Translations under genes and position numbers: made by a program | Notes under the pieces: generated by a model | What the model was told of the DNA's origin: nothing | The model's input: only the letters and a program-made list of their open reading frames with translations | Database searches by the model: none | DNA from: Nitrosopumilus sp. | Lineage (GTDB): Archaea; Thermoproteota; Nitrososphaeria; Nitrososphaerales; Nitrosopumilaceae | Direction: 5' to 3' | DNA length: 64,000 nucleotides | Assembly: GCA_965205425.1 (NCBI GenBank) | Contig: CBDBGZ010000009.1 | Coordinates: 1-64,000, forward strand | Part shown: positions 2,573-28,410 of the stretch, one piece after another | Position numbering within the stretch: the first letter of the stretch is position 1 | Layout: each line of letters starts with the position of its first letter

Positions 2573-2578
2573 TGATTC

Positions 2579-6387: not shown

Positions 6388-6390
6388 GAC

Positions 6391-9888: not shown

Positions 9889-9890
9889 CC

Positions 9891-10952: not shown

Positions 10953-11057
10953 GTTAGCCCTAAAAACATCCTGGTTTTAAGATTAGCGATTGTTCAGGCT
11001 TACTCACATTAGGCATCTGACCAAAAGGTCTTAAAGGAATAATTTCTGATCGCATAA

Positions 11058-12668
11058 ATGAGCAAAACCATCACACGCTACTATCCAAAAAGTGATGGCA
11101 TTACATCTTCAAAACCTAATTCATGTTACTGTGGGAATGGTGATAATTTTAATAAAATTACAATCTCGGAAAATAATTCTATACGATACATGTGCAAAAA
11201 TTGCAAGAAAAGTTACATCATAAAAAGTCCACAAGTCACTAAAACCCGACTAAAAAAGATGGGGAGTATATTTGACAATATTGTCTTTGGGATGAGTTCA
11301 AGGCAAACATGTCTTAGACTGTTTATTGAGTGGGGAGACATAACAGACCATACAACAATACTCCGATGGTCAAACCAATACTTGCAATATGCGAAAATGT
11401 TCACTGACGATATTTTATGCTGTCTGGAATATGGTAAAGTCTGGGGGATAGATGAGACAATAATTAACATACAAGGAACATGGCATGATGCAGATGCCAC
11501 ATTACTATCTGAAATGCAAAGCATTGAAAAGAAACGAAAAGATGGAGGGTTTCTTGATGACAAAGAGTTTAGAAAAGAATGGGAAAGACTTCGTGCCAGA
11601 GCAGAAAAATCAAAAAGAACATCAAAGAAAAAATATCTTACCGCAGTAATAGATATCAAAACCAGAATTATAATTTCCCATATCATTACAGATTTCAGGC
11701 CTAACAACAAAGAAATCTACAAACTAGTCAAAACTGCAATTGTTGTTGCAGGATTCCCAACTAATATAATCACCGATTGTTACAAGGCATACAAGCCAGC
11801 AATGAATCAAATTACAAAAGATATTAAAAATCACAATAGCTCAAAATTAAACCACATCCTGATTCGTTCAAAAGACCAATCAACCCTACACCTTAAACCT
11901 CAAAAATCAAAAGATGATACGCCAAGACACAACAATAACATCGAAAGTACTTGGGCCAAAATAAAGAGAAACATGCATGTTTTGTCTAACTACAAATACA
12001 ATTCAGACAGCATAATTCATTACAACATTATAAATTATAATTTCATTAGACCGCATTCATCGCTAGATAAAATTACAGTATCAAGGCACGCTGTCAGAAA
12101 CAAGATAAACATGACTCCTGCAATGGATGGAGGATATCCCCAATGGTTTGCAAGCTTTGAGGAATTATTATCAGAATCTTGGGGATATGACAAGTCATTT
12201 GTGTTCAAATTAGGCTCAAAACTAATGGAAATGATTCGCATTGGAATCAGAAACAAAAAGACAGTAGTGATATCTGCAAAAGAAAAGATTCCAAAAAGCA
12301 AGATTGCAGAACTTGACAGAATTCTTCAGGTTGAATGTGGATTTACAAACACCAAGAAAAATGAATGGAAGAAAGACATGCCATCTATACTCAACATGAA
12401 CAGAAGAAGAGAAGAGAATATGGGCAGTGTGATGCCCGAACAAACATTTGAGGTCTGCAACAGATGTGGCATAACTGCAATCACAACTCAGACAGTATCA
12501 GAGATTATCGGATATAGAAAGACAAATGGCAGAATCATCACTCAACCCAACTGTCACAAATGCAGAGCCAAAATATCAAAGAATCCAACTAGAAAAACAG
12601 GACCTAACAAAAAGAAGATGATTAAGAGTTCATTGTTAGTTAGTAATTCTGAGACCAAATTATCCTAA
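11058..12668 (+). CDS. IS6-like DDE transposase with N- and C-terminal Zn fingers
   Basis: CYCG..CKNC, HTTILRW, WGIDET / ITDCY / IESTW, NFIRPH..MTPA, C-terminal CNRC..CHKC; stop codon overlaps the inner end repeat. Confidence 0.82.
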   Translation: MSKTITRYYPKSDGITSSKPNSCYCGNGDNFNKITISENNSIRYMCKNCKKSYIIKSPQVTKTRLKKMGSIFDNIVFGMSSRQTCLRLFIEWGDITDHTTILRWSNQYLQYAKMFTDDILCCLEYGKVWGIDETIINIQGTWHDADATLLSEMQSIEKKRKDGGFLDDKEFRKEWERLRARAEKSKRTSKKKYLTAVIDIKTRIIISHIITDFRPNNKEIYKLVKTAIVVAGFPTNIITDCYKAYKPAMNQITKDIKNHNSSKLNHILIRSKDQSTLHLKPQKSKDDTPRHNNNIESTWAKIKRNMHVLSNYKYNSDSIIHYNIINYNFIRPHSSLDKITVSRHAVRNKINMTPAMDGGYPQWFASFEELLSESWGYDKSFVFKLGSKLMEMIRIGIRNKKTVVISAKEKIPKSKIAELDRILQVECGFTNTKKNEWKKDMPSILNMNRRREENMGSVMPEQTFEVCNRCGITAITTQTVSEIIGYRKTNGRIITQPNCHKCRAKISKNPTRKTGPNKKKMIKSSLLVSNSETKLS

Positions 12669-12813
12669 GATCACCAAAATGCACCAGCAGGGTCTAAAGA
12701 TGATTTCTATTGGAAATTATCCAAGTAGAAATCAGATAATTTAGAGGAATCTAATTTGGAGAAGATCTATATTTCACATTAAATGGTACAGATCACTAGA
12801 ATGCACCAGAACC

Positions 12814-13386
12814 GATAGAACTGTAAAGTATGCAGAGATCGACGGCACTAGAACTTACAAAAAAGACACTATAGATTTTGTTGAAAAAATGCTTCTAGTC
12901 ATGCCAACTGAAAAAATCAAAATAGATTCCTATATTCATAGAGCTTGCTCTTTGAAAGTGTTTGAGCATAAGACACAAACAAGTTATCAAAAATACATTT
13001 ATGATGAATCTTTTGTTATTGCACTAGAAAAATATTGGAAACAAAGAAAATTCCAAAAGAAAAAATATCTTTTTTGGGATGATAACAATACAGTATTTGA
13101 ATTTGAAACTTATGACAAAGTAGTTTATTCTAAAGTTTCTGCTGACAATAAATTTTTACAGAAATTGTTATTGAAAGTTGGATTTACCAAAGAAGATTTT
13201 GGTGCAATGTTTAGAGCTAATTACGCCTTTAGGCATTTTGGTCTTCAGATGTGGTTGGAACTAACTGATTATGATTATGAATTTGTTAGTGAGATGTCTC
13301 ACGATGATGTTGCTACTTTGAAGAACTGGTATGGTAAAAGAAGTTCTGAACACTTTGAGAAACAAGCTAGTGAGGTCGTTGTTTAG
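12814..13386 (+). pseudogene. Proviral tyrosine integrase, 5'-truncated by transposon 2
   Basis: Frame open from the transposon edge (DRTVKYAEIDG...); EHKT, YAFRH, MSH, NWY motifs present; first catalytic Arg region missing. Confidence 0.8.
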
Positions 13387-13809
13387 ATGGTTACTGATGT
13401 TGCAATATTTCGTTTTAGATTAAACCCTGAAGAACGTGAATTTTTACATTCTAAATTTTCAACAGAAACAAGAAACGACTTACAAGATAAAATTAAAGAA
13501 TTTTTACTAAAACCTGAAAGTGTCAAAAATTTAACACTTGCAGAACAACTAAAAGAACAACAATTACTATCTCTCAAATTAAAAAATCAATTATTGCTTG
13601 TTCGGGATTTAAAATATCCAATTTCTAAAGCGTTAGAAATTATGAAAGATCCTGATTCGTTTGAAGCTCCTAAATTAGAAAATTCAAGTGAACCTGCATT
13701 AAACGATAACAAATTCAAAATTAATCCTCACTGTGATGATTGTGGCCATGAACATTATCAAACTGGTATGTTCAACTGTAGAGAATGTAATTGTGGGGTT
13801 AGAGGCTAA
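13387..13809 (+). CDS. Proviral protein with RHH-like N-terminus and C-terminal Zn finger
   Basis: FRFRLNPEEREFL; CDDCGHEH..CRECNC. Confidence 0.6.
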   Translation: MVTDVAIFRFRLNPEEREFLHSKFSTETRNDLQDKIKEFLLKPESVKNLTLAEQLKEQQLLSLKLKNQLLLVRDLKYPISKALEIMKDPDSFEAPKLENSSEPALNDNKFKINPHCDDCGHEHYQTGMFNCRECNCGVRG

Positions 13810-14264
13810 TGAATAGAGCAGTTGAACATTTACAAAATATCGGTGTAAGAGATTATTATCGCACACCTAAAGAATTATTTGATGAAGCTTGTCAAAAATA
13901 CGGACTTGATATTATCTATGATGTAGCTTGTAATTCAGAAAATAAAGTTTGTAGTATTGGAATCACTGAAGAACAAAACTCTTTAAGTTTTAATTGGGAT
14001 AGAGATTTTTTTATGAATCCACCATATTCACAAGTCAAGAAGTTTATGCAAAAGGCCTATACTGAACACTTGAAGCATAATGTAAATGCACTAATTCTTG
14101 TTTATGCAAAAACTGACACTCAATTTTGGCATGACTATGTTGAAAATAAAGCTGAAGTGCATTTTATCAAAGGTCGAATTAAATTTTTAGATGAACACGG
14201 CAATAAGACAAAATACCCTGCCCCTTATGGCTCATGTTGGATAATCTATAGGAGAAAAATCTAA
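13809..14264 (+). CDS. Phage-type N6-adenine DNA methyltransferase (Dam family)
   Basis: YRTPKELFD, DVAC, FMNPPYS, KGRIKF. Confidence 0.9.
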   Translation: MNRAVEHLQNIGVRDYYRTPKELFDEACQKYGLDIIYDVACNSENKVCSIGITEEQNSLSFNWDRDFFMNPPYSQVKKFMQKAYTEHLKHNVNALILVYAKTDTQFWHDYVENKAEVHFIKGRIKFLDEHGNKTKYPAPYGSCWIIYRRKI

Positions 14265-15096: not shown

Positions 15097-15405
15097 ATGG
15101 GTGGCTCACCAGTGAAGGAATCTGAACAACCTAAATCAAAACGAACTGAATCCTCGCAAGATTTAGGCGGTGGCTCACCTGTTGGATTAATATTTTTAGT
15201 TCTTGCAGTTCTTGGAGCTTTAGCATGGTTTCTTAAATTCAGAAATAAAAAAAATTCCGATAGCCAAAAAAAATCAAATAAAGGGGGCGGTAATGATTCA
15301 CAAAAGGCTCTACCTGTTAAAGGAAATAGTGATGAACCTAAACCCAAAAAAGATCCTGTAGAACCTCACCCTGAAGATGAAATTAAAAAGAGGTTTGCTC
15401 ATTGA
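15097..15405 (+). CDS. Proviral single-TM membrane protein
   Basis: TM segment LIFLVLAVLGALAWFL followed by a basic stretch. Confidence 0.7.
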   Translation: MGGSPVKESEQPKSKRTESSQDLGGGSPVGLIFLVLAVLGALAWFLKFRNKKNSDSQKKSNKGGGNDSQKALPVKGNSDEPKPKKDPVEPHPEDEIKKRFAH

Positions 15406-16229
15406 GTTCCGAAGTTATTCAAAGTCCAGCGGGTAAAGAAAATTCTAAACCATTACCAAAATCAAAAGAATCAAAATCAGAACTTGTTCAAAAAAAGATT
15501 AAAGAAAAATTAGATAACGGCTATGAAGTTAAAGATAAAAATTCTGTTAATGAATTAAAAAAAATGGTTATTGATGATTTAGGCCTCTCTAAAGGTTGGG
15601 GTAGTGATACAAAAAAATTAATTGGCTCTGAATTATCTGCACGAGATATTTCTCTTGCAGATAAGGGATTTAAAGATGAAAATCTTGATGGCATTACTGT
15701 TAATGTTGATAAACCAATGTTACCAGTAATTGATGAATCACAAGAAGTTTCAAAAGGAACTATGCCCGTAATAGATTCAAATTCTAATACCCCTGCTGAA
15801 AATCCTCATGGCACATTACCTCAAACAGATTCTCACCCTGCACTAGAACAAGAAAAAAAAGTTGAACCTTTAACCCCTCAACAAATAGAACTACAAACTA
15901 AATTTTTTAAAAAATGTGGTAATATCGTCGCTGATATTTACATTGGAATGGGTTTAGTTGAAACTGATGATGAAGAAGAAAAGAAAGAACTGGAAAAGCC
16001 TAAACCTATCAAAGAGTTTAGAGCTGAAGTAGATGGATTATGTGAGGAATTTTCGCAATTAATGATTACTTACGGAATGAGATTACCAAAATATTTAGAT
16101 CTTGGAATGTTTGGAGTTGGTGTAGTTGTAACTTTTGGTGTTCCAATTTTGAAAAGAGTTATGTCGGGTGAGAAAAAACCTGATGTTGATTATGATAAAA
16201 AACTTGATGAGGTTGATGTAAAATTATGA
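15402..16229 (+). CDS. Proviral protein with a C-terminal TM segment
   Basis: LGMFGVGVVVTFGVPIL near the C-terminus; upstream of the ATPase. Confidence 0.7.
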   Translation: MSSEVIQSPAGKENSKPLPKSKESKSELVQKKIKEKLDNGYEVKDKNSVNELKKMVIDDLGLSKGWGSDTKKLIGSELSARDISLADKGFKDENLDGITVNVDKPMLPVIDESQEVSKGTMPVIDSNSNTPAENPHGTLPQTDSHPALEQEKKVEPLTPQQIELQTKFFKKCGNIVADIYIGMGLVETDDEEEKKELEKPKPIKEFRAEVDGLCEEFSQLMITYGMRLPKYLDLGMFGVGVVVTFGVPILKRVMSGEKKPDVDYDKKLDEVDVKL

Positions 16230-16459
16230 TGCCCCCAATAAAATTAATGGTTTCATTATTCCAAAATCTAAAACCCATTTTGGAATTATTAAATGACCAT
16301 AAAGGCGTTAAACAAACTTTCGGAAAACCTGATATTATTGAAAAAGAAATTGATGGTGAGAAAATTTTTGTTGTAGTTGAAAAGACTGGATTTGAATCAA
16401 AAAAAGATGCTCAAGCTTACATTGACATTGGCGAAAGATTTCATAGTATGAAGTTTTAG
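16226..16459 (+). CDS. Proviral hypothetical protein
   Basis: ATGA-coupled ORF. Confidence 0.6.
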   Translation: MMPPIKLMVSLFQNLKPILELLNDHKGVKQTFGKPDIIEKEIDGEKIFVVVEKTGFESKKDAQAYIDIGERFHSMKF

Positions 16460-16755: not shown

Positions 16756-17412
16756 TTGGTTAAAGATTTCAAAAATTTCAAGTATAACCCAAAAAAAGAA
16801 TCTATTGTAATTGCTGGTGAAACTCAAAGTGGAAAATCTGAATGGACTAAAACTTTAGCACATATCAACGCCTTTTCAGGTTACAATGTTTTAGTTGTTG
16901 ATAGGAACTGGATATTTACAAACTTGAATCCAGAAAAAGTTATTCACACAATTTCTGATATCAAGGGTAAAGGTTTGCAGATCCTTCAACCTCAAACTAT
17001 CAGAACAGGTAAAGAGAAACACGATTATATTAATAATGTATGCTATGTTGCACAAAGTTTTTCTAAAAAAGGGAACTTTATTTTAATCATTGATGAGCTG
17101 CAAGACTGGATTGAGCATTTTAATAAGAAAGTTGATGGACTGGACACGTATATTCATACTTGCCATAATTACAACTCTAGCTATATTGTTAATTTCCAAA
17201 GCCCGTCCGAAATTCCAAAATATGTATTTTCTAATGCGATTCATAAATTCTGTCTATACATGGACACGCCAAACAACGTCAAATTTATGAAAAATTATGT
17301 AGGCAATATGATGGATGGTTTTTCAAATGGAACTTTTGCCAAATATGAGGGATTTTACAAACAATCAGGCCAAGCCCCAGAAAAATTTAAGGTGGTAAAA
17401 TTTGGAAAATAA
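16756..17412 (+). CDS. Genome-packaging ATPase (A32/FtsK-HerA superfamily)
   Basis: Walker A IAGETQSGKS, Walker B ILIIDE, FQSP motif; 218 aa; located just upstream of the MCP. Confidence 0.85.
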   Translation: MVKDFKNFKYNPKKESIVIAGETQSGKSEWTKTLAHINAFSGYNVLVVDRNWIFTNLNPEKVIHTISDIKGKGLQILQPQTIRTGKEKHDYINNVCYVAQSFSKKGNFILIIDELQDWIEHFNKKVDGLDTYIHTCHNYNSSYIVNFQSPSEIPKYVFSNAIHKFCLYMDTPNNVKFMKNYVGNMMDGFSNGTFAKYEGFYKQSGQAPEKFKVVKFGK

Positions 17413-17590
17413 AGAGTATATGTGTCCTACTTGTAAAAAGCGATTCTCTAGTGTCGTTAATGTAAATCGCCATATCAAAAAAACAAAATGCAATAAAGGT
17501 CAAGATGTAACAATAAAGGATTATTTTTCAGATCGCCAAATTGAAGAAATCCATAGACAATCTTATGACTTATTTAAACCCCGTGCCTAA
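17402..17590 (+). CDS. C2H2-type Zn-finger protein
   Basis: YMCPTCKKRF....VNRH...C. Confidence 0.7.
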   Translation: MENKEYMCPTCKKRFSSVVNVNRHIKKTKCNKGQDVTIKDYFSDRQIEEIHRQSYDLFKPRA

Positions 17591-17635: not shown

Positions 17636-17743
17636 ATGTTTAGCAAAGGAATGCTCGTAGCAGTCGGCGTAACTATCGTCGGTGTTGTTCTTGCAGTTGC
17701 TTTTGTCCTTCCATATCTCAACAAAAAGGGTATTGGAAATTAG
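17636..17743 (+). CDS. Small virion membrane protein (35 aa)
   Basis: Own translation MFSKGMLVAVGVTIVGVVLAVAFVLPYLNKKGIGN; directly before the MCP. Confidence 0.7.
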   Translation: MFSKGMLVAVGVTIVGVVLAVAFVLPYLNKKGIGN

Positions 17744-17762: not shown

Positions 17763-18755
17763 ATGCCTGTCGAACCGAATGAACGACCTATACCCGAACT
17801 AACCTTGAAAGATAACGAAGCTGAAATTAAGCTAAAGTTACCGCAAGACGGAGCTTATCGTTGGATTCATGGTAGAGTAGTTTTTGATATGACTAATGTT
17901 GGTGTTCCAACATTCAAAACTGGTGATATCATAAATTATATCAAATCTATCGGAATTCAAAGAAATGGTAGGGGTTACAAATACAAACTACCATTAGAGC
18001 ATATTCACCTACTTTCTATCCGTAGAAAAGGTAAAGCTCCTTACAAAAAAGATCCGTCCGTTGTGGCAGGTGCAGCTAATTATGAGGCAGTCGTCGATTT
18101 TGAAATTGATTTTGCTACGTTCCCTCTATCTGATAGAGATACTACAGCATTACTTCAAACAAAGAATCTATCCAGTTTGCACTTGATTGTTCAAACTGGA
18201 GATAAAGATGATATCGCTAGTGCAAACCCACCAACTATCAACAGTGCAAAAATCGAACTTGAAGTTCGTGAGTATTTGGGTATCGGTGATAATGGACGAG
18301 ATATCAATGACGATACACAAGTTCAAATGACGGACTTTATCGAACAAGTCGAAATTGTTAACCTTGAGGCTAACAGAAACGAATTTGATGGTAAAGCCCA
18401 AAGCATACCTCTAGTTGCTGGTGCAGATATCTTAGAACAAGTATTACTTGTAAAAGATAATACAGTTCTAAGTGATGACCGCGTAACTGATATCAAAGTC
18501 AGTAGAGCTAGAGCCGATACTAACTTTCCCAAGAAAGATCTTATCGAAAGAAGTTGGAAACACCTTAATGAGAAAAACATTACGGGTTACAATTTGGATG
18601 CTAGAAAGACTGGACAAGTTATCTTAAACTGGGTTGAAAAGTTAGGCCAATTAGGATTAGTTACACGTGCTACTCAATACGAACTCTTGAGACTGAAGAC
18701 CAACGGGGTTAATGAAGCTCAAGATACAATAGAGATCTATACCCGTTATGTGTAG
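17763..18755 (+). CDS. Double jelly-roll major capsid protein, STIV B345-like
   Basis: 330 aa, beta-rich; segments IKLKLPQDGAYRWIHGRVVFDMTN, INYIKSIGIQRNG, FEIDFATFP and IERSWKHLNEKN resemble the STIV MCP as recalled; AAGGAG RBS; T-rich terminator after. Confidence 0.82.
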   Translation: MPVEPNERPIPELTLKDNEAEIKLKLPQDGAYRWIHGRVVFDMTNVGVPTFKTGDIINYIKSIGIQRNGRGYKYKLPLEHIHLLSIRRKGKAPYKKDPSVVAGAANYEAVVDFEIDFATFPLSDRDTTALLQTKNLSSLHLIVQTGDKDDIASANPPTINSAKIELEVREYLGIGDNGRDINDDTQVQMTDFIEQVEIVNLEANRNEFDGKAQSIPLVAGADILEQVLLVKDNTVLSDDRVTDIKVSRARADTNFPKKDLIERSWKHLNEKNITGYNLDARKTGQVILNWVEKLGQLGLVTRATQYELLRLKTNGVNEAQDTIEIYTRYV

Positions 18756-18763
18756 ATCTCAAA

Positions 18764-18804: not shown

Positions 18805-19959
18805 ATGGTAAAAATAGTAATAACAGCGATTGTCCTTGCGGTATTAGTAGGGTTATTTGTAATTTATAGAAAACAGATTTTCGGGGCTTTTGGTGAAGCT
18901 GGTGATGGTATATCCGATTTCTTCGGTCGTGGAGCTCAAGGCGTTCAAGATTTCTTTAGTGGTTTTGGTTCTAGTTCTAGTCCTAGCCCTGATAGTGGCC
19001 TAAACCCTGATGCTTCTCAACAATCAGATGCAGAACAAATAGAATTATTTGATAGAACTTTAACTTCTGATGAAGAACTTGTAATTAATTTCAATGATAA
19101 CCCTGATAGTCTATCTGATACAGAAAAAGCCAAAGCTCAAGAAATAATTAATGGCCAACTTGATGCAGATCCCCAACTAAACGACATTGATAGATTTAAT
19201 CCACCTGGAATTATTGGCTATGGATATGAGAATTTTGGCGATGGTCGGGGCTTACCTGATACACCTGAAAATCGTGATTTGTTAGAACAGTTTCTAGCTT
19301 CAAGGGAAACAACCCCTAGTTTTGCCCCTGAAACTATCCCTGATTTTGATGGTTTAGGTGATGTTATCCCTAATCTTAATCTCGTCCCTGAAGCTTTTGC
19401 AGATGATGGCGTTGAATCTGATACTTTACAAGCTGATGATGTAATACCAAAATCTGAAATAGATTCTACTAATGAAGTTGATCCCGATATTTTACAAAGA
19501 TATCCAAATTTCAAAGCATTTTCACCTAGACTGCAAGAAAGAATATTATCAAACTTTGAATCTGCCTCTAATCAGATTGAATCTGATGGTGTCCCTGCTT
19601 CTACTAGAGCTGCACAAAGAGAAATTGATGTAACCTCTCAAATTGATAATCAACAATTCAGTGGTGGTGGCCAATCTTTTCAAGGTGGAACAGTAAGGAC
19701 TTCTAACTTAGATGAAGCTACAATCCGTTCAAGACGACAAGAATCAGAAGAAATAATGCAAGCAAGACGTTTAGCTGGTGAATCAAGGGATAGTGCTATT
19801 GCAGAACTTGATAGAACAAATTCTGAATCAAGATCTAAAGATGCAGAATTGATGAGAAGAGCTGAAGAAGCAAACATGCAATCTCAAGGACAATTTTTCG
19901 GCAAAACCCCTGAAGAAATTGTGCAAATAATCAATGGTGGGGACATTAACAAGTTTTAG
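18805..19959 (+). CDS. N-terminally membrane-anchored acidic virion protein
   Basis: TM segment VKIVITAIVLAVLVGLFVIY; Gly/Ser- and Asp-rich, low complexity. Confidence 0.7.
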   Translation: MVKIVITAIVLAVLVGLFVIYRKQIFGAFGEAGDGISDFFGRGAQGVQDFFSGFGSSSSPSPDSGLNPDASQQSDAEQIELFDRTLTSDEELVINFNDNPDSLSDTEKAKAQEIINGQLDADPQLNDIDRFNPPGIIGYGYENFGDGRGLPDTPENRDLLEQFLASRETTPSFAPETIPDFDGLGDVIPNLNLVPEAFADDGVESDTLQADDVIPKSEIDSTNEVDPDILQRYPNFKAFSPRLQERILSNFESASNQIESDGVPASTRAAQREIDVTSQIDNQQFSGGGQSFQGGTVRTSNLDEATIRSRRQESEEIMQARRLAGESRDSAIAELDRTNSESRSKDAELMRRAEEANMQSQGQFFGKTPEEIVQIINGGDINKF

Positions 19960-19969
19960 GTGATATGAT

Positions 19970-20440
19970 ATGAGTTTTCAAGAAGATATACAAAAAGAGA
20001 TGAGAGAGCAAAATCAAAGAGTTATTGAAGCTCTTAATGAAATACGTCCTAAAGATATTCAAGTTACCAACGTTAAGAAAGTCCCTGTAAAATGGGATTA
20101 TACTGTATGTGATAAAAAAACAGTAACTCAAAATAAACTAGACATTAACAAACCCGCTATTGAGATAGAAGCCCCTGATGAAGTAATTAGAACTATCCAA
20201 TCAATCTCAATAACTGGCGATACTGCATTATTGGAAAATGCAAAAGTGTTAGTATTTGTAGATGATGCTAGGGTTTTTGAAACTAAAAGTTATGGTTCAT
20301 TACAATATTCAAATGGTGCAAGTATTATTTTTGATAATGGTTTTTCAATTAGCCCTCAAGATAAAGTAAAAATTTATTGTTTTACTGATGGTGATACTGA
20401 AATTAACATTAGTGCAATAGTAAGATTTGGTGAGTATTAA
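19970..20440 (+). CDS. Putative penton protein (single jelly-roll)
   Basis: Beta-rich 156 aa; similar to the N-terminal domain of 21366-23609. Confidence 0.55.
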   Translation: MSFQEDIQKEMREQNQRVIEALNEIRPKDIQVTNVKKVPVKWDYTVCDKKTVTQNKLDINKPAIEIEAPDEVIRTIQSISITGDTALLENAKVLVFVDDARVFETKSYGSLQYSNGASIIFDNGFSISPQDKVKIYCFTDGDTEINISAIVRFGEY

Positions 20441-21363
20441 TGAGTTTTATCCCTAAAGGTGGCGGGGGTTCTGGCGGAACTGGTCAAGATGGAATGGACG
20501 GAATAGATGGGAATAGATTTAGAAATACCAATGATGATATTTTTAATTTTAATTTTGATATCAGTATAAGTAATGTCGCTGTTAATGGAGCTAGTCTAAA
20601 CGGATTAAAAAAAGGAGATATGATATTTTATAATGCAAAATATGTTTTTCAAGTATTCGCTATCGGAAATGTAAATACAACTTTTGAATTTTTAGGTGAT
20701 ATTTCGGGAGCTCAAGGAATACAGGGTGATGCTGGAGCTCAAGGAATACAAGGTGAAAAAGGTGATAAAGGCGATCAAGGTGTAGGTGCTAATGATAACA
20801 CTAGAACTATTATTGTAGAATCTACAGAACCAAACAAAAATTATGCAGTAAGAGACCAAGCAGTAGGAACTGTTGATTATCACGGTGTTCATGTTCCAAT
20901 TAGTTTTAATGTCGTTCCCTCAAAAATTGATAATGAAATTTTTGAAATTATAGATGTTCCATTAGCTAACAATGCAAATCCTTCAACTTCAGAAACAATC
21001 AAAGCAGTTAGAGTAAAACGATCTGGTCTTTATGAAATTGAATTGTTATGTAATTTAGAGGAAACTGATGATAATGATGATTCAAACCAAAGAGTAGATC
21101 CTCGTTTAACTTGTCATAAAGCTGCAGTAAATGGTGGTATGGTAACAGGTATTACAGCTATACTGAAAACAACTTCCTATATCAGAAATATTAACGGAGA
21201 ACACGAACACGGGGTTTTACATATTGGACACAAATTACAATTAGTTCAATTAGATACGATCTTTTTTAGAATTACTGATCATAGTTTAGACCCTCACACT
21301 TTGATTAAAGATAGTGCTGGGGGCGGTATGATGAATTTAGTTATGACTTTTGTTGGTGATTAA
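20440..21363 (+). CDS. Collagen-repeat spike/fibre protein
   Basis: G-x-y repeats GAQGIQGDAGAQGIQGEKGDKGDQG; beta-rich C-terminal head (VKRSGLYEI). Confidence 0.7.
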   Translation: MSFIPKGGGGSGGTGQDGMDGIDGNRFRNTNDDIFNFNFDISISNVAVNGASLNGLKKGDMIFYNAKYVFQVFAIGNVNTTFEFLGDISGAQGIQGDAGAQGIQGEKGDKGDQGVGANDNTRTIIVESTEPNKNYAVRDQAVGTVDYHGVHVPISFNVVPSKIDNEIFEIIDVPLANNANPSTSETIKAVRVKRSGLYEIELLCNLEETDDNDDSNQRVDPRLTCHKAAVNGGMVTGITAILKTTSYIRNINGEHEHGVLHIGHKLQLVQLDTIFFRITDHSLDPHTLIKDSAGGGMMNLVMTFVGD

Positions 21364-21365
21364 AT

Positions 21366-23609
21366 TTGGTTTATCAAAAAACATTTGTCAAGGAAATCGA
21401 AACTAATGTTAGAAAAAGACCTAGTAACCCTCAAGTCAAAATACTAAATCCATTAGAAAAAACTATTTTTGTTAATTCAATTTCTTTAAATTTTGATCCC
21501 TATTTTGCTAGACGGGGTAAAATTGTCGTTGAAGTTGGTGATGATGTAGTTTTACCTGTTGCTGAAGTTGGTGCATATAGACAATCTAAAACTTTTCAAA
21601 TTCCATTAGAAAATCAAGAATTTTATCAACAAAAATCAATCAAAGTTTGGGCATGGAATCCCGATAGCGAGGAAAATATTTTTGTTGTTGTTAAAGCCAA
21701 AATTTCAGAATCCCCAGTTTCTCTTAATTCTGCTGATGAATCTTTATCCCCTGAAGAATTAAACCGTCAAGTTTCAGATAATTTTGTTGATAATCAAGTT
21801 CAAGTGCAGCTTGATAAATTAGATGAATTAATTGAAGAAGTCCAAAATAAAGAATTTACTGCAAATTTTGACACTGCCCCTATCACAACTAAACTCACTG
21901 AAGTAAAAACCGCTGTTGGCCTTTTACCTCAAAATCATACGGATATTATCAATAAATTAACTGATACAATTACTGCAATTAACAACGGGGCATTTAGTCC
22001 TACTGAAATTATCACTGCTCTAAATTCCTTAATTTCAGAAGTCGCAAATTTAGAAACAGATTCTCTAGGTATTCAAAACGCCATAACCAGTATTGATGAA
22101 ACACTAGCTAAAGATGATATTACTGATAACGACACTGATAGATTTACAACTTTGAGGGGCTTTCTAGTTGAGCTGTTAAATGGCTTTGATGTTCCCGAAA
22201 TTGACACTGCATTAACGAATCTAGTGTTATATCAAAATGCACAAGATAGACACCCTGAAACTAAAGCAAAAATTCAAGTTGTTATTGCTAATCTAAATCA
22301 AATAAAAAATACGAATACTGTTGGCGTAGTTTCTGAGTTAGTTGCTGTTAGACAATCTGTAAATGATGAAAATACTAATCTAGGAAATAAACTTGATGGC
22401 GTAAAATCTTCAGTAGATGGAATATCTGTAGCAAGTGAAACAATCCCTAAAGCCATTGAGGATATTAATCTTGAAATTTCTAATGGTGCTGAAGGTGATT
22501 ATTTAGAGGCTCTAAATTTGATAAAAACTGCTCTAATTGGTTTAAGAGATGATTTTGATCTTGATGAGCTAAACAGTGTCATTCAAACTCTTAATACTAA
22601 TCTAGGTGAAATTAGAAATAATTCTGATGCTTTAGGGTTATTACTTGATAGCTTGAAAATATCTTTAGAGATTGCAGCTAGAAACCCGTCTTTAATTCCT
22701 TCACAAGTTAATTTCCTATTTCCAAAAAGAGTATATCGGAATGAAACAGTTACACAATTTATCAATACTAAAGGCAATAGAAATTTGATTGTATTACTAG
22801 GTGCTTCAACTATTGGTTCACCTGATAATCTAAATCATGTTGATAACCCTGCTGATGTTCCAATTAATTATAATGGCTTTGTTACTGGCGGTTCTCAAGA
22901 TGCAATAACTAGAACTAAAGAAACTAGATTCGATTTCAAATATCCTCAATTTGAAGATAGATTATTTGATTTACACCCTGAAGCTGATATTTCTATTGAT
23001 ATTGCTAGTGGTTCATGTAGGATCTATTACCCTGCTGGAAAAAATCGAGGCGGTCATTACATTACTTATGGATGGGTTAGAAGGGCTTCATACGTTAGAA
23101 CTTTTGATGTTTATGAATCTGATAGTGAAAATTTTGCTAATGAAACTCAATTAAAAGATGGTGTAGGAATTGCTGAATTAAGTGCTATTGTTGGCACTAA
23201 AAGATATTTGAGAATTGTTGAAACTATGGTAATAACTATCTCAAATCATACTACTTCAAGTAATCAAACTAACGTTGGTCAAGGTAGTTCTTCAACTACT
23301 ACTTGTGCTTCTTCTTCAGTGGGAAATCATACACCTGTTTCTACTACTTTTGATGATGCTATGGATGATGCAATAGTTGGCGGAACTGCAGCTATTTCTT
23401 TTGAAGTTAAAGATGGAAATAATGATTGGTTTGAAACTATCCCTTCTAGTGAAGTAGGTGCAATTACTGAAGGACAAAAAACAGTTTTTGAAGTTGGTGA
23501 AGCTGTAAGTGGCCATGTATTACCTTCAACTCAAACTCACTTTAGGGCAAAACTAACTGTAACGGGTGGGGGAATTGAAACAAGTGCAAGTTTAGTGAGG
23601 GTGGCATAA
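21366..23609 (+). CDS. Vertex spike/turret protein (penton-like N-domain, helical stalk, beta head)
   Basis: N-domain similar to 19970-20440; long heptad-rich middle; Thr/Ser-rich beta C-terminus. Confidence 0.65.
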   Translation: MVYQKTFVKEIETNVRKRPSNPQVKILNPLEKTIFVNSISLNFDPYFARRGKIVVEVGDDVVLPVAEVGAYRQSKTFQIPLENQEFYQQKSIKVWAWNPDSEENIFVVVKAKISESPVSLNSADESLSPEELNRQVSDNFVDNQVQVQLDKLDELIEEVQNKEFTANFDTAPITTKLTEVKTAVGLLPQNHTDIINKLTDTITAINNGAFSPTEIITALNSLISEVANLETDSLGIQNAITSIDETLAKDDITDNDTDRFTTLRGFLVELLNGFDVPEIDTALTNLVLYQNAQDRHPETKAKIQVVIANLNQIKNTNTVGVVSELVAVRQSVNDENTNLGNKLDGVKSSVDGISVASETIPKAIEDINLEISNGAEGDYLEALNLIKTALIGLRDDFDLDELNSVIQTLNTNLGEIRNNSDALGLLLDSLKISLEIAARNPSLIPSQVNFLFPKRVYRNETVTQFINTKGNRNLIVLLGASTIGSPDNLNHVDNPADVPINYNGFVTGGSQDAITRTKETRFDFKYPQFEDRLFDLHPEADISIDIASGSCRIYYPAGKNRGGHYITYGWVRRASYVRTFDVYESDSENFANETQLKDGVGIAELSAIVGTKRYLRIVETMVITISNHTTSSNQTNVGQGSSSTTTCASSSVGNHTPVSTTFDDAMDDAIVGGTAAISFEVKDGNNDWFETIPSSEVGAITEGQKTVFEVGEAVSGHVLPSTQTHFRAKLTVTGGGIETSASLVRVA

Positions 23610-23824
23610 TGGATAGATTCATTGCTGAAAAAATACTTGAAAATGGATTAATCGCTAAAGTAACTGCTATGATTGTTATTATTGCATTATCATTAAGTTT
23701 GGTTCAAAATCTAAATTGTTTTACTAATGCTGAAAGTATCAATTTGACATTACCTATAATTTCCAGTGTTCTAACTGGTGCTATGACTTTTCTTTTCTTG
23801 AAAAAAGATAAAGGTGAGAAGTGA
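23609..23824 (+). CDS. Two-TM membrane protein
   Basis: Two hydrophobic segments and a basic C-tail. Confidence 0.65.
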   Translation: MDRFIAEKILENGLIAKVTAMIVIIALSLSLVQNLNCFTNAESINLTLPIISSVLTGAMTFLFLKKDKGEK

Positions 23825-23836
23825 GGGGGTGATAGT

Positions 23837-23986
23837 ATGGCAGTTTTTGTTTTACTGGCAATAGCAATAGCAAGTGGTTTAGCTATTGAACTGTATCGAG
23901 ATAATAAGAGTGGAATTCATAAATTCCTAAACAATATGGTTACTGGTGTTGGTAATGATGTCCGTAACCAGTTACGCCCACGTTGA
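23837..23986 (+). CDS. Small TM protein (49 aa)
   Basis: Own translation MAVFVLLAIAIASGLAIELYRD...; GGGGGTGA RBS. Confidence 0.6.
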   Translation: MAVFVLLAIAIASGLAIELYRDNKSGIHKFLNNMVTGVGNDVRNQLRPR

Positions 23987-23987
23987 G

Positions 23988-24013
23988 CTTTTGATCTAAT
24001 ATACTCGATTTTT
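23988..24013 (+). promoter_or_regulatory. Proviral promoter motif, copy 2
   Basis: Identical 26-mer to 15058-15083; ends 13 nt before the start codon at 24027. Confidence 0.7.
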
Positions 24014-24026
24014 CTCTTTTTTTGTA

Positions 24027-24386
24027 TTGATTCCAAAAAATCAACATGAAGCAGAACTTTTAGAGAGAATTCAAAACCTCGAAAAAAGTGAATTTGGCGG
24101 ATCTAAAGAAGAAGGTTACAAAAAACCTCAATCTGCAAGATCTGAAATGACTGAAAATGAAGAAGGACAAAATGGATTAGAACGTGATTATCTGGGAACT
24201 GATAGTTATGATTCTTTGAAAGCTGTTTTAACTTCATTAGGTCAAGACAATTCAAGAAATGCAAAATGGAATGAAAAACTACAAGAAGTGAAAGTTAGAT
24301 TATCAAAAACTGATCTTGATGCAAATCAAGAACGTAATTTGATTATGCTACTTCAAAGAGTAGAAGCGGGGGTAATTAGAAATTGA
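24027..24386 (+). CDS. Proviral hypothetical helical protein
   Basis: ORF following the promoter motif. Confidence 0.65.
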   Translation: MIPKNQHEAELLERIQNLEKSEFGGSKEEGYKKPQSARSEMTENEEGQNGLERDYLGTDSYDSLKAVLTSLGQDNSRNAKWNEKLQEVKVRLSKTDLDANQERNLIMLLQRVEAGVIRN

Positions 24387-24592
24387 CCTCGATAAGCTCT
24401 AAAGCGATTCCATTCATTGCACTTGCTATAGCTGGTGGCCTTTTGGGTATTGATGTATTCACTGATTTTGTTATCACTGAAACTCATATTCAATTAGTCG
24501 GTGTTATTGTTACGCCTCTAGGTCTTGGTGGACTTGTTAACAAGGGTTGGAATGTCTACAGGGACATAAAGAAACAGGGTGAAATAAGATAG
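24383..24592 (+). CDS. Two-TM membrane protein
   Basis: Two hydrophobic segments; TTGA overlap. Confidence 0.65.
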   Translation: MTSISSKAIPFIALAIAGGLLGIDVFTDFVITETHIQLVGVIVTPLGLGGLVNKGWNVYRDIKKQGEIR

Positions 24593-24771
24593 CTACAAAA
24601 AAACAACTTGCAGCTCTAGCTAAAGGTCGTGCCAAATTAAAAAAAATGAGAGCAAAGAAAAAAGTAAAATCTCATAAGAGAATTACCAAAAAGTGTAAAA
24701 AATGCGGAAAATACCATAAATCTGGCGTTCATAAATCACATGGTAAAGGATCTTATGCAAAAACTCACTGA
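24589..24771 (+). CDS. Highly basic small protein, putative genome-condensing protein (ATA start)
   Basis: Own translation (I/M)ATKKQLAALAKGRAKLKKMRAKKKVKSHKRITKKCKKCGKYH...; GGGTGA RBS upstream. Confidence 0.6.
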   Translation: MATKKQLAALAKGRAKLKKMRAKKKVKSHKRITKKCKKCGKYHKSGVHKSHGKGSYAKTH

Positions 24772-24810: not shown

Positions 24811-25329
24811 ATGAAATTTTTAATCCTATTTGCTGTTTTAATTATTGGCGGGGGCGGTGTTTCTGCTTTTGCTCACCTTCATACAATAGATGAATCTCAT
24901 TATCCTGAAATTCTTCTCTATATGTCCTATTCAGATTCCCATGAAGCATTTCATATTGATCTTTATTCTGATGCTTTTCTTCAGTTGAACTGGTCTTCAT
25001 TACCTTTCAATTCTACTTTCTATCTTACTAATGGAACTGAAATAACTACAAACTATCAAACTCATCATGTATTCCCTGAAAATAATGATGGAACTGTTTT
25101 AATTCAATTTGAGCTTGAAGAATTTTATTTTAATGATTCAAGATTTTATTTAGAATCTCCTTTTGTTGTTGATGAAACTTTTGAATTTTCATCTAATAGC
25201 ACAAATGTCTATACGGTTCATAAACCAGTTACAACTTCTGATTTAGAAGATCTACTTCAAAGAGTATCGCAATTAGAATATGCTATGAGAATTGTTGAAG
25301 ATGCTATTGCTTCTTTGATTTCAAAATGA
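24811..25329 (+). CDS. Secreted/surface protein with its own TATA promoter
   Basis: Signal peptide MKFLILFAVLIIGGGGVSAFA; TTTTATAA ~30 nt upstream; C-terminal coiled coil. Confidence 0.7.
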   Translation: MKFLILFAVLIIGGGGVSAFAHLHTIDESHYPEILLYMSYSDSHEAFHIDLYSDAFLQLNWSSLPFNSTFYLTNGTEITTNYQTHHVFPENNDGTVLIQFELEEFYFNDSRFYLESPFVVDETFEFSSNSTNVYTVHKPVTTSDLEDLLQRVSQLEYAMRIVEDAIASLISK

Positions 25330-25425: not shown

Positions 25426-25872
25426 TCACAAATCACTACTTTCTGGAAATAGTAAATTAACATTCCAATCAGAGACACTTAGAACAACATGGAAAGGAGT
25501 TTTGCCAGTAATTTGTGCATATTTTTCAATTCTTCTTGTAGATCTATTTGATTGTCGCCCCATCCATTTCTTGTCACATTCTTTGCATGCTGCTCTATAA
25601 CAAGAACGTTGGAATTGTTTTACAAAAGATACATCACCAAAGCCTAATTGTTTATGTTTTTCAGAGTTTACACACCCAATCGTTTTCCACATACCACACC
25701 AATCATGAGGATCACTTGTTCCAGGAAGCCGCCAACCATCATGTTCTACATCATCCCAATTTGTTAGGAATTTTTGTTCTTCATAAAAGTCAGATTTACT
25801 TTGCTCAGAGGCAGGAAGTAAAAATTTTATCATGGATTGGTTAGGATTGAGTTTAGACAATATCCTGGCCAA
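25426..25872 (-). pseudogene. Rolling-circle Rep (HUH family) N-terminal fragment, 3'-truncated
   Basis: Zn-binding WCG..GC..H..SCYRAACKEC and motif-1-like FHVVLS; stops before any HUH or YxxK motif. Confidence 0.65.
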
Positions 25873-26008
25873 TCAAAAATTTTTTGTTTTGTTTTGCTTC
25901 ACATTCATCACATAGTTCTAAAATATAATGTCCTATTACACCGGCATCCATTAACAAATGATGTTTTTTCTTATTGGTACACTTGCAAGAAAAAGTAGGA
26001 GGGGTCAT
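25853..26008 (-). CDS. Small Zn-binding protein (51 aa), paralog of 26005-26190
   Basis: Own translation MTPPTFSCKC...MDAGVIGHYILELCDEC. Confidence 0.6.
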   Translation of the reverse strand: MTPPTFSCKCTNKKKHHLLMDAGVIGHYILELCDECEAKQNKKFLIGQDIV

Positions 26009-26190
26009 AATCTTAATCTCCATTTTGTATTTTTTGGAACTTTATCCCACTCTATCATCCAGGGAACAGAAGCATATCGTTTACAGAATGCACATAATAC
26101 AATTACAAATTCACCCAAGATTCCTGCATCCACGTAATAGACATTTAGTTTTGATCTGTTACATCTACATTCTAATTTTAAAACAGACAA
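26005..26190 (-). CDS. Small Zn-binding protein
   Basis: CRC...VDAGILGEFVIVLCAFC. Confidence 0.6.
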   Translation of the reverse strand: MSVLKLECRCNRSKLNVYYVDAGILGEFVIVLCAFCKRYASVPWMIEWDKVPKNTKWRLRL

Positions 26191-26192
26191 TC

Positions 26193-26330: not shown

Positions 26331-26375
26331 ACCAATAGTGATATTTTGATATATTAGTTATAACATGCCTAAATT

Positions 26376-27230
26376 GTGCCAAAGAAGAACAATTCATACC
26401 TAAATCAAGATTTAGAAATATTGAAAAAAATACTCAATTTTGGAAAACCTGAAAAATTTAGAAAAATAACTTCAGGATACGGACTAAAAGAGATAGATTT
26501 TGATAACGAAGAGATTAAAATTCCTAAAATTATGACAAGGAAGATTTTTCGAGGAAGAAAAAATATTCTATTATCACGGAAATTAATCAGAGAAGTCAAG
26601 ACAAAAGGCGAGAGGAAATCATATGGAATTACACCATTAGGAATTATACTTCTATGTCAGCATATCAAACTAAAAGAACATGATATAATACGAATTTCTA
26701 AAATTATACAATTTCACCTAGATATAGTTTTCAATAAAGATAAGAAGAAAAAATTCAATGTAATAGAGACACAAATAAAATCAAAATCAGAACAAAAAAT
26801 TGCTAAAAATATAATGAAAGCACTAAAAGACGTACAAATTTTTGAAGAAGAAGGTACACAAAAAATCTTCCTGACATATGAAATTGCAAATACTGTGTTA
26901 ATCGTTTTAGAAAAATATGATATTTTAAACAGTTTTGTATATAGAGGCTTAGAAAAAACATTCCCAAGAGTAGATCATATTGAAGATGATTCATTTTTTG
27001 GCACGTTGTCATTTTTTATTTTAGGATCATATGCACATGCATATGTTATTGATGATTTAACCATAGAAGGTAAAATTTTGAAAGAAGAATCAAAGAACAT
27101 GAAAGAGTATCAAAAGAAAAACGAGAATATATTTAGATGGTTCCAGATATTTCAAGACTCATTGGTTGGAATGATGGATAAACAAACAAAGTATGTTGAC
27201 AAATTCAGGGAATTAACTTCCACAGTTTAA
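26376..27230 (+). CDS. Hypothetical protein with a winged-helix-like N-terminus
   Basis: LLSRKLIRE...KSYGITPLG wing motif. Confidence 0.6.
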   Translation: MPKKNNSYLNQDLEILKKILNFGKPEKFRKITSGYGLKEIDFDNEEIKIPKIMTRKIFRGRKNILLSRKLIREVKTKGERKSYGITPLGIILLCQHIKLKEHDIIRISKIIQFHLDIVFNKDKKKKFNVIETQIKSKSEQKIAKNIMKALKDVQIFEEEGTQKIFLTYEIANTVLIVLEKYDILNSFVYRGLEKTFPRVDHIEDDSFFGTLSFFILGSYAHAYVIDDLTIEGKILKEESKNMKEYQKKNENIFRWFQIFQDSLVGMMDKQTKYVDKFRELTSTV

Positions 27231-28330
27231 GCAGGCATTATTTTGTATTTTTCATTTGCCAATTTCCATTCCTTAACTTTTTCAAGTTCTATCTCTAGAT
27301 TTTTTAAAGTACTTTCCATATCACCTATAGTTTCTTCAACTTTAGAATTATCAGAAATTGTCAGACTAGACTCAATTTTCAAGTATGTTTTGAGCCTATC
27401 TTGAGAATTTTGCTTGAAATATACCAATTTTAGACTCTTGTGACCCATCAAGGCCTCTGCAAAATCAGATTGATAAGCACTAGTCACTTGTGTTTTAAAC
27501 CATTTTCTAAAAGCGTGAAAATGAATACGATATTGGCCATTTTTATTTCTATTCCCAAGATCAGGAACGGATTCAACAGTTTTTCGTAACGAGTTCATCA
27601 AAGACCCCCTTGCAGCTTGAAATGCAGCAAAATATTCAGTGGAATCTATAGAAGATAAACAATTCATAAACAAATAGAAATCATTTGAAGATATTTTTTC
27701 TTGTCTTTTCTGGATATAGTCATGTAGTAAATCAGAAGACTCCTTAGTAATATGAGTAAATCTTGTTTCACGAGTTTTTGTTGTTTCTCTTCTTATCCTA
27801 ATTGTTGCAGGGTTTGTGGTAAAATCAATATCAGATAATCTGAGTTGTGTTATTTCACCTATACGCATTCCACTTGAACAAGCTAGGAGAATTGCTGTTT
27901 GTAGTTTTTGAGAAGAGTTATGAAGTAATCTAACCAGTTCTTTTTTTGGGATTCCTTCCTCATAGAAGACCTCACGTTTTGGAGATCTAAATCGTTGTTT
28001 TAGATCTTCAGAATATATTTTCAATCCATTAAAGTTAAGAAAATCTTTTGATATACACAAATTACCACATATTGTGCTGTTACGCAAGTTATGTTCAGAC
28101 ATGAAACTATAGTATTCATCCAAAAGAATTACAGGATCTTTTTTCTTTTGTTTCAAATCTATTAGAATTTCTTGTAAGGTTGTTTGTGTGGATATTAGAA
28201 AACGGTTAAAATTTCTTAATGCAACCTTGTAGCCTCTTTTGGTATTATGACTCTTAGAAATACGATAAACACGCTCAAGATAAGACTCAATTTGTGAATC
28301 TATTGTATGCATATTGAATATATTCAACAT
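27227..28330 (-). CDS. Tyrosine recombinase/integrase
   Basis: SSGMRIGE, TTKT, HAFRK, LMGH, VY; SAM-like N-domain. Confidence 0.93.
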   Translation of the reverse strand: MLNIFNMHTIDSQIESYLERVYRISKSHNTKRGYKVALRNFNRFLISTQTTLQEILIDLKQKKKDPVILLDEYYSFMSEHNLRNSTICGNLCISKDFLNFNGLKIYSEDLKQRFRSPKREVFYEEGIPKKELVRLLHNSSQKLQTAILLACSSGMRIGEITQLRLSDIDFTTNPATIRIRRETTKTRETRFTHITKESSDLLHDYIQKRQEKISSNDFYLFMNCLSSIDSTEYFAAFQAARGSLMNSLRKTVESVPDLGNRNKNGQYRIHFHAFRKWFKTQVTSAYQSDFAEALMGHKSLKLVYFKQNSQDRLKTYLKIESSLTISDNSKVEETIGDMESTLKNLEIELEKVKEWKLANEKYKIMPA

Positions 28331-28349
28331 ATTCTATATAAAATAAGTG

Positions 28350-28379
28350 ATTAGGTGTTATTTTAAAATAAGGTCTAAT
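28350..28379. other. Candidate att/recombination site (imperfect 11-6-11 palindrome)
   Basis: A-TTAGGTGTTAT-TTTAAA-ATAAGGTCTAA-T between the integrase start and the hemD stop. Confidence 0.4.
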
Positions 28380-28410
28380 AGCTTCAGCTAAATTTTGGAG
28401 TTTGGATAAT

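What the first reader, a model, noticed from the sequence alone, without database searches (positions are those of the whole stretch)
17763..18755. Capsid protein with colinear motif matches to STIV B345
Seen in order: IKLKLPQDGAYRWIHGRVVFDMTN, IINYIKSIGIQRNG, FEIDFATFP, LEQVLLVKDN, VTDIKV, IERSWKHLNEKNITGYNL, VILNW. From memory these parallel STIV MCP segments (IPIKIPRNNFIRKIRV, NLVQTFNLSYEG, WEFDLARFP, IKVSWAALQAENQAEY). It ends at YTRYV, apparently without STIV's basic C-terminal helix, so membrane contact may rely on the adjacent 35-aa TM protein (inference).
Basis: partly seen in the sequence, partly recalled or inferred. Interest (0 to 1): 0.85.

Follow-up and report, generated by a model that had tools for sequence, protein, structure and literature searches.

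The report
STIV-type capsid of Nitrosopumilus provirus
This gene encodes the shell protein of a small tailless virus, related to the hot-spring virus STIV, that sits integrated and damaged in the chromosome of a Nitrosopumilus ammonia-oxidising archaeon; the virus type is known, but this lineage appears to be undescribed.

Summary
Confirmed. [quoted passage not shown] Its model (pLDDT 93) best matches STIV B345 (Z 27.6). A 100-sequence profile hits only STIV coat protein in PDB (E 5e-26). It ends at the last strand without STIV's helix, but that is the norm among 167 aligned relatives. The upstream 35-aa membrane peptide is conserved, yet STIV and STIV2 also carry one, so it does not simply replace the helix. 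The gene lies in a 14.1-kb provirus with a B204-like ATPase, a single jelly-roll protein and an A510-like integrase. The provirus is inserted by a 9-bp core into a Rep gene of a larger island. An insertion sequence split its integrase, and the left end lies on contig C5. The genome holds an intact-looking sister (12.8 kb) and a distant remnant. Host genus is Nitrosopumilus (inferred). I found thaumarchaeal DJR proviruses reported only from Nitrososphaera. New member of a known kind; trimer untested.

The parts
17763..18755 (+). [quoted passage not shown]
17636..17743 (+). 35-aa single-pass membrane peptide with a basic C-terminal end, directly before the capsid gene
   Evidence: family found in 8 of 12 related loci; hydrophobic ORF in this position in 14 of 17 loci
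16756..17412 (+). Packaging ATPase, closest to STIV B204; Walker A and B present, arginine-finger position not canonical
   Evidence: 12-sequence profile, top PDB hit STIV B204 E 1.3e-17; alignment
17402..17590 (+). C2H2-like zinc-finger protein, conserved between ATPase and membrane peptide
   Evidence: Pfam zf-C2H2 E 1.6e-4, below the curated cut-off; 9 of 12 related loci
18732..18760 (+). Terminator-like hairpin over the capsid stop codon (consensus match only)
18805..19959 (+). 384-aa acidic protein with an N-terminal membrane anchor, conserved after the capsid gene; role inferred structural
19970..20440 (+). 156-aa single jelly-roll protein with an N-terminal helix; penton or cement candidate
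   Evidence: model pLDDT 84.6; generic single jelly-roll matches, Z 7-9.4
20440..21363 (+). 307-aa protein with a short collagen-like repeat; fibre candidate, not conserved in relatives
21366..23609 (+). 747-aa protein whose N-terminal domain belongs to the 156-aa jelly-roll family; spike candidate
   Evidence: role inferred
15097..16459 (+). Three conserved genes before the ATPase (102 aa with a membrane helix, 275 aa, 77 aa); function not identified
23609..24771 (+). Small late genes: three hydrophobic proteins (71, 49, 69 aa), a 119-aa protein and a 41-aa basic protein (net charge +16, DNA-condensing candidate)
13809..14264 (+). Dam-type adenine methyltransferase
   Evidence: Pfam PF05869 E 8e-27
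13387..13809 (+). 140-aa protein after the integrase, with homologs in relatives; regulator inferred from position
12814..13386 (+). C-terminal part of the provirus tyrosine recombinase (A510-like); the N-terminal part lies at G000:C5:53911-54710
12814..12821 (+). 8-bp target duplication, also present at G000:C5:54703-54710
11058..12813 (+). IS6/IS240-type transposase gene and the inverted-repeat end that abuts the broken integrase
   Evidence: Pfam PF13610 E 3e-8; junction bridged by a contig of run X2
24811..25329 (+). 172-aa protein with an N-terminal hydrophobic stretch, inside the right end; not in relatives
25441..25449 (.). Right attachment core (9 bp); the identical left core is at G000:C5:53249-53257
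   Evidence: contig break at 25441 in three runs
25426..25872 (-). N-terminal part of a putative rolling-circle Rep gene of the host island, interrupted by the provirus
   Evidence: colinear with the C5 part against 7 of 7 homologous loci; HUH motifs read by eye, no convincing family hit
27227..28330 (-). Integrase of the surrounding island (not the provirus's own)
   Evidence: Pfam PF00589 E 1.7e-18
28375..28404 (.). Imperfect repeat of about 30 bp ending the surrounding island; partner near G000:C5:39276-39305, empty site on contig C4

Best explanation
[quoted passage not shown] Shown: two consecutive jelly-roll barrels closest to STIV B345, a neighbouring B204-like ATPase, a single jelly-roll gene, an A510-like recombinase, att cores, and a 14,090-bp length. 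Inferred from the lineage: three copies form pseudo-hexameric capsomers over a host-derived membrane, and the ATPase packages a circular DNA of about 13-14 kb. The capsid protein has no terminal helix, so the shell is most likely tied to the membrane by separate small membrane proteins and the vertex, as in PM2. The 35-aa peptide is the first candidate, possibly through its basic end and the conserved acidic linker on the inner capsid face (inference, about 0.4). The recombinase inserts the genome at varied sites through a 9-bp core. No replication gene was recognised, so host enzymes probably copy the DNA (inference). This copy is probably defective (about 0.75), since an IS6-type event split its integrase and separated its left end.
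For: Fold: Z 27.6, rmsd 2.6 A, 294 aligned to STIV 2bbd; PRD1 P3 Z 25.9; cellular double jelly-roll enzymes only 12.1-12.3; Foldseek E 5e-18 to PRD1 P3 and 5e-17 to STIV. Profiles. ATPase. Recombinase: a family member passes Pfam PF00589, catalytic-motif residues align with STIV A510, family profile to A510 E 0.0056 among STIV ORFs. Three independent joins link C5:39.3-54.7 kb to window 12.8-28.4 kb: an 8-bp duplication, a 9-bp core inside the Rep gene, and an outer repeat with an empty site on C4. Same gene order in the sister and in metagenome contigs. G427 has two 14,067-bp copies, 99.99% identical, at different sites. L009 has a circularly permuted gene order without host genes. PM2 P3 and P6 membrane links: PMC13552765 passages.
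Against: No particle, trimer, membrane or expression was shown. Foldseek ranks PRD1 P3 slightly above STIV. The single jelly-roll protein matches no penton specifically. At the arginine-finger position the close clade has His, and the window copy also lacks the nearby Arg kept in 9 of the 11 other rows. STIV and STIV2 carry a similar upstream peptide while keeping their helix. NO16 shows little ordered capsid-membrane contact, so no dedicated linker may be needed. The assembly is 5.2% contaminated and partly redundant, and the split could in part reflect assembly across repeats.
Confidence: 0.93

Rival explanations
1. Capsid-membrane contact is made at the vertices (as A223/A55 do in STIV) or by the 384-aa or 102-aa membrane proteins; the 35-aa peptide serves packaging or membrane recruitment instead.
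For: A similar peptide gene is present in STIV and STIV2, whose capsid has its own helix. Six other element proteins have hydropathy above 1.9, besides the 172-aa cargo gene. The STIV review calls the turrets the strongest capsid-membrane contacts (PMC10551542 passages).
Against: The peptide gene directly precedes the capsid gene in 14 of 17 loci. Its basic end and the acidic linker (net negative in 25 of 26 sequences) are complementary, which is only suggestive.
Confidence: 0.5
2. The provirus is still mobile: the split is an assembly artefact or a minority state, or the sister's integrase acts on these att sites in trans.
For: All morphogenesis genes are open. Contigs of three runs break exactly at 25441, with about twice the depth on the Rep side (X1 64 vs 175, X2 498 vs 1054), as an empty site would give.
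Against: A contig of run X2 spans 12676-13293 across the IS-integrase junction. Both halves carry the same 8-bp duplication. The tool warns that contig depth is no copy number, and these runs may be the source sample. A provirus-free strain explains the depth equally well.
Confidence: 0.2
3. [quoted passage not shown]
For: Capsid, ATPase and recombinase are each closest to or align with STIV proteins; the gene order ATPase, small membrane ORF, capsid is shared.
Against: Genome 14.1 kb versus 16-17 kb, and host not Sulfolobales. Structural identity to B345 is 13%. No other gene family found its syntenic STIV counterpart at E<0.001, C92 included. STIV lies on a long branch away from this clade.
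Confidence: 0.07
4. It is a cellular or domesticated double jelly-roll protein rather than a viral capsid.
For: Cellular double jelly-roll enzymes match at Z about 12; this copy is in a broken element.
Against: Viral capsids score twice as high. The gene occurs in only 5 of 401 genomes of the family, and in the Nitrosopumilus-clade loci inspected it lies in virus-like gene blocks.
Confidence: 0.02

Closest known systems
Sulfolobus turreted icosahedral virus (Turriviridae), coat protein B345, PDB 2bbd/3j31
   Same: Double jelly-roll fold (Z 27.6), colinear motifs, B204-like ATPase, A510-like recombinase, small membrane ORF directly before the capsid gene.
   Different: No C-terminal helix, which in STIV contacts the membrane, is needed for replication and binds a CdvB paralog (PMC10551542 passages). 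Smaller genome, different host group, and no detected match to C92, A223, C381 or C557.
Thaumarchaeal DJR proviruses NitGar-E1/E2 and NitEve-E7 (Krupovic et al. 2019, PMC6563490; section Proviruses read)
   Same: DJR capsid, packaging ATPase and divergent tyrosine integrase in a thaumarchaeal chromosome; NitEve-E7 is likewise nested in another mobile element, and NitGar-E1 carries an insertion sequence.
   Different: Those are in Nitrososphaera. I did not compare the named sequences directly. Capsids from another family of the same order (G389, G929) are 24-28% identical, G878 gave no blastp hit at E<=10, and all three lie outside the window's clade.
STIV group of Yutin et al. 2018 (PMC5894146; passages)
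   Same: STIV-related capsid with an STIV-like ATPase, archaeal hosts including Thaumarchaeota.
   Different: The main text has no occurrence of 'Nitrosopumil'; supplements not read. No Rep, MCM or polymerase gene was recognised here.
Phage PM2 and vibriophage NO16 (Vinavirales)
   Same: Plain double jelly-roll capsid without elaborations (PMC6260650 passage); small membrane proteins under the shell (PMC13552765 passages). This is the best model for how it works.
   Different: Lower structural score (Z 20.2), bacterial hosts; no P3/P6 family hit was seen in PHROGs.

Membership tests
Double jelly-roll viruses (Varidnaviria, Bamfordvirae) | Major capsid protein with two consecutive jelly-roll barrels | tested here: met
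Double jelly-roll viruses (Varidnaviria, Bamfordvirae) | FtsK/HerA-type packaging ATPase near the capsid gene | tested here: met
   top hit STIV B204 E 1.3e-17; Walker A and B intact
Double jelly-roll viruses (Varidnaviria, Bamfordvirae) | Canonical arginine finger in the ATPase | tested here: inconclusive
   His at that position in the close clade; window copy also lacks a nearby Arg
Double jelly-roll viruses (Varidnaviria, Bamfordvirae) | Single jelly-roll penton protein | tested here: inconclusive
   156-aa protein folds as a single jelly roll, matches generic
Double jelly-roll viruses (Varidnaviria, Bamfordvirae) | Trimeric pseudo-hexameric capsomer | not tested
Double jelly-roll viruses (Varidnaviria, Bamfordvirae) | Icosahedral particle with an internal membrane | not testable with these tools
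   only indirect: several membrane-protein genes
STIV group (Yutin et al. 2018) | Capsid related by profile to STIV B345, with an STIV-like ATPase | tested here: met
Turriviridae | dsDNA genome of 16-17 kbp | tested here: not met
   14,090 bp reconstructed length; sister 12,809 bp; family definition
Turriviridae | Host Sulfolobus or Saccharolobus | tested here: not met
   host genus inferred as Nitrosopumilus
Turriviridae | Capsid C-terminal membrane helix | tested here: not met
   model ends at its last strand, aligned to STIV residue 313 of 345
Turriviridae | Turret proteins (A223, C381, A55) and pyramid protein C92 | tested here: inconclusive
   no sequence match at E<0.001; C381 appears among generic fold matches at Z 7.9
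Turriviridae | Pseudo T=31 turreted virion of about 75 nm | not testable with these tools
   needs particles
Integrated provirus | Tyrosine integrase and direct-repeat att cores | tested here: met
   9-bp cores; catalytic motifs in the family; gene split in this copy

The most novel reading that the evidence does not exclude
An undescribed family of temperate, tailless membrane-containing viruses of Nitrosopumilus with circular 13-14 kb genomes and no replication gene of their own. Their A510-like recombinase inserts at many unrelated 9-bp sites. Their helix-less capsid is tethered to the membrane by a tiny peptide whose basic end binds a conserved acidic linker. The same peptide gene, unannotated in the STIV and STIV2 records, would then be an overlooked virion component of the whole STIV lineage.
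Probability: 0.3. Interest if true: 0.72.

Novelty: new member of a known kind. Interest (0 to 1): 0.5.

Why it matters
Nitrosopumilus drives much of marine ammonia oxidation (general knowledge). A 2026 survey found five proviruses in 1078 Nitrosopumilaceae genomes and three Varidnaviria vOTUs among all archaea (PMC13573593 passages). A profile search here finds DJR capsid genes in 5 of 401 genomes of the family, three of them in this genome. The lineage extends STIV-type viruses to a mesophilic host and adds taxa to the open question, posed in PMC6563490, of whether DJR viruses co-evolved with archaeal phyla. The intact-looking sister and the duplicated element in G427 are concrete induction targets. 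The capsid protein itself is an ordinary member of a known fold.

Tried and rejected
Single-sequence searches found nothing: PDB, Pfam only a sub-threshold MamI hit, PHROGs no convincing family, phage records, IMG/VR 0 confirmed of 43 pattern matches. The ESM Atlas gave unnamed clusters at 0.98 and P3/P2 capsid clusters at 0.96-0.97 with low recognition, a lead only; for the 275-aa gene it gave nothing usable. Trimer prediction: tool not available, no verdict. No tRNA gene in the window, so tRNA-type integration is rejected; a plain repeat search did not show the att sites because the left end is on another contig. The integrase at 27227-28330 and the Rep gene were considered as the virus's own and rejected, since the provirus interrupts the Rep gene and the sister and G427 elements lack both. 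A 13-bp repeat near the sister was rejected in favour of a 9-bp core whose flanks match the window's viral ends. A planned alignment of the 275-aa family for comparison with STIV B264 failed on my coordinates and was not repeated; the family profile did not find B264. No RNA holder listed. No short matches of the element elsewhere in the genome, so no spacer evidence. The tree is the quick version, not the finished search. The tail count used a multiple alignment that gave STIV 10 extra residues instead of 32, so it is approximate. Veesler et al. 2013 was not held. Supplements of PMC13573593 could not be read and may list these elements; supplements of the other papers were not opened.

Full report
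Observation. The protein has 25 relatives at E<=0.001 among 2837 candidates. The 26-sequence profile scores 374 cluster representatives at E<=0.001. The single sequence does not reach STIV significantly. The 26-sequence profile gives STIV coat protein as the best of three PDB hits at E<=10 (E 0.0023), and none of 2000 shuffles of B345 reached its score. A 100-sequence profile gives E 4.9e-26, with STIV chains as the only 2 hits at E<=1.

Fold. The model has mean pLDDT 93.0 and pTM 0.88. Against 48,161 chains the best match is STIV 2bbd (Z 27.6, rmsd 2.6 A, 294 aligned), then PRD1 P3 (25.9) and PM2 P2 (20.2); cellular double jelly-roll enzymes score about 12. Foldseek ranks PRD1 P3 first (E 4.8e-18) and STIV at rank 14 (5.2e-17); the viral library agrees.

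The missing helix. The last strand is residues 322-329 and aligns to STIV residue 313. STIV continues for 32 more residues ending in a basic stretch. A review reports that this tail contacts the membrane, that deleting 22 residues abolishes replication, and that it binds a CdvB paralog (PMC10551542, passages). Of 167 aligned capsids (of 172 proteins held, those of 280-400 aa, plus four locus ORFs and STIV), 131 extend by at most 5 residues, 35 by 6-14 and 1 by more, an acidic tail. That alignment undercounts STIV's own tail. Four of 167 have four or more K/R in the last 12 residues, STIV among them. STIV is therefore the exception, and the absence is ordinary.

The membrane peptide. The 35-aa ORF has homologs in 8 of 12 related loci. 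A hydrophobic ORF lies directly upstream of the capsid gene in 14 of 17 loci. The count includes the window and two near-identical metagenome contigs; the misses are G729 (weak), the C9 remnant and G389. STIV and STIV2 each have a conserved 31-aa one that their records do not annotate. So the gene is an old part of the module and not a substitute gained when the helix was lost. The linker between the barrels (173-192) is net negative in 25 of 26 sequences. By known double jelly-roll topology it faces inward (my knowledge), so it could bind the peptide's basic end. This is inference. PM2 uses P3 and P6 as membrane links, whereas NO16 shows little ordered contact (PMC13552765, passages).

The element. 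Upstream lies an ATPase whose family profile is closest to STIV B204 (E 1.3e-17). Walker motifs are intact, but the arginine-finger position is His in the close clade. Downstream lie a membrane-anchored 384-aa protein, a 156-aa single jelly-roll protein, fibre and spike candidates, small membrane proteins and a basic 41-aa protein. No Rep, primase, helicase or polymerase was recognised among the provirus ORFs scanned. ORF 12814-13386 is the C-terminal part of a tyrosine recombinase. One family member passes Pfam PF00589, and the motifs align with STIV A510.

Boundaries. The N-terminal part of the recombinase is on contig C5 at 53911-54710. Both parts abut an identical 25-base IS end and share an 8-bp duplication, the only such direct pair involving these two among the 15 ends listed. 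An IS6/IS240-type transposase gene is adjacent in the window; 8-bp duplications are typical of IS6 (recalled). At the right end, a putative Rep gene breaks at a 9-bp core (25441-25449). The same core is at C5:53249-53257, where the gene resumes in frame, and the two parts are colinear with homologs in 7 of 7 loci. The provirus is thus 14,090 bp. It is nested in an island of about 31 kb between sufB-like and hemD-like genes (names recalled from sequence), whose empty site is seen on the redundant contig C4. Public contigs of three runs break exactly at 25441, with about twice the depth beyond it in X1 and X2, and one X2 contig bridges the IS junction. These runs may be the source sample, and depth is no copy number.

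Relatives. The genome has three capsid genes: this one, a sister on C5 (64% identical; 80281-93089, 12,809 bp, full-length integrase, a different 9-bp core with similar viral ends) and a distant IS-riddled remnant at C9:1.05 Mb. Capsid genes occur in 5 of 401 genomes of the phylum, 5 of 401 of the family and 7 of 401 of the order, G000 included, and in 7 JGI metagenome loci. G427 holds two 14,067-bp copies at unrelated sites, which indicates recent integration with relaxed target choice. L009 (12,105 of 13,437 bases seen) starts within the gene before the ATPase and ends in the 102-aa family, a circular permutation without host genes; terminal redundancy was not seen. In a quick tree of 73 capsids the window sits in a 21-row clade (support 100) with the sister, G323 and the JGI contigs. 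Capsids from another family of the order, and STIV, fall outside it. The host genus is inferred as Nitrosopumilus, because same-genus genomes carry proteins and loci that the tools title so.

Literature. Seven searches returned one paper on thaumarchaeal DJR proviruses, PMC6563490 (passages and the Proviruses section read), which finds them in Nitrososphaera only. PMC5894146 (passages) does not mention Nitrosopumilus in its main text. PMC13573593 (passages; supplement unreadable) counts five proviruses in 1078 Nitrosopumilaceae genomes. PMC11316562 was read whole. PMC6260650, PMC10848233 and PMC11849493 were searched by term (the last had no hits). Subscription papers are mostly not held, so absence from print is not established. 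Earlier notes of this scan report similar elements in other hosts, and none by place or sequence.

Verdict. The protein is an ordinary STIV-group capsid protein of a probably defective provirus, from a lineage and host genus that I could not find described. New member of a known kind, candidate new family; interest 0.5.

Noticed in passing
G000:C5:80281-93089 (L016, L017): Intact-looking sister provirus of 12,809 bp with a full-length integrase and a 9-bp att core; best induction candidate.
   Followed up: yes
G000:C9:1045500-1050900 (L018): Third, distant DJR provirus remnant broken up by several insertion sequences; no ATPase was found by the family profile.
   Followed up: partly
L031:14831-14926 and L047:934-1029: Conserved 31-aa hydrophobic ORF directly before the capsid gene of STIV and STIV2, not annotated in either RefSeq record.
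   Followed up: partly
L038:4730-18796 and L039:4734-18800 (G427): Two near-identical 14,067-bp DJR proviruses at unrelated sites in one single-contig genome, with short A/T-rich ends.
   Followed up: partly
L009 (Ga0114931_10007366): Circularly permuted gene order without host genes; probably a free circular genome of 13.4 kb.
   Followed up: partly
L001:8612-15657: Shortened provirus: truncated integrase followed directly by the membrane peptide and capsid genes, with the ATPase region missing.
   Followed up: no
G000:C5:53324-53405 and C5:93030-93080: Three to four short direct repeats just inside the left end of both proviruses; integrase arm sites or replication iterons.
   Followed up: no
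window 16756-17412: The ATPase lacks arginine both at the usual finger position and at a nearby position kept in 9 of 11 relatives; possible decay or a variant mechanism.
   Followed up: partly
window 2579-10952: Restriction-modification cargo: methyltransferase and helicase-like genes, a HATPase protein with a receiver-domain protein, and a C5 methyltransferase, between IS ends. Window 1-11639 is repeated at 99.97% on contig C8.
   Followed up: no
window 25426-28404 with G000:C5:39276-53260: Host island with a putative rolling-circle Rep, integrase, restriction-modification genes and a tRNA-Ser copy. The Rep fragment has matches in 31 of 151 genomes of the genus.
   Followed up: partly
G000:C4 versus C5 and C9: Contig C4 duplicates parts of C5 and C9 at 84-93% identity, so the assembly holds a second strain or haplotype.
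   Followed up: partly
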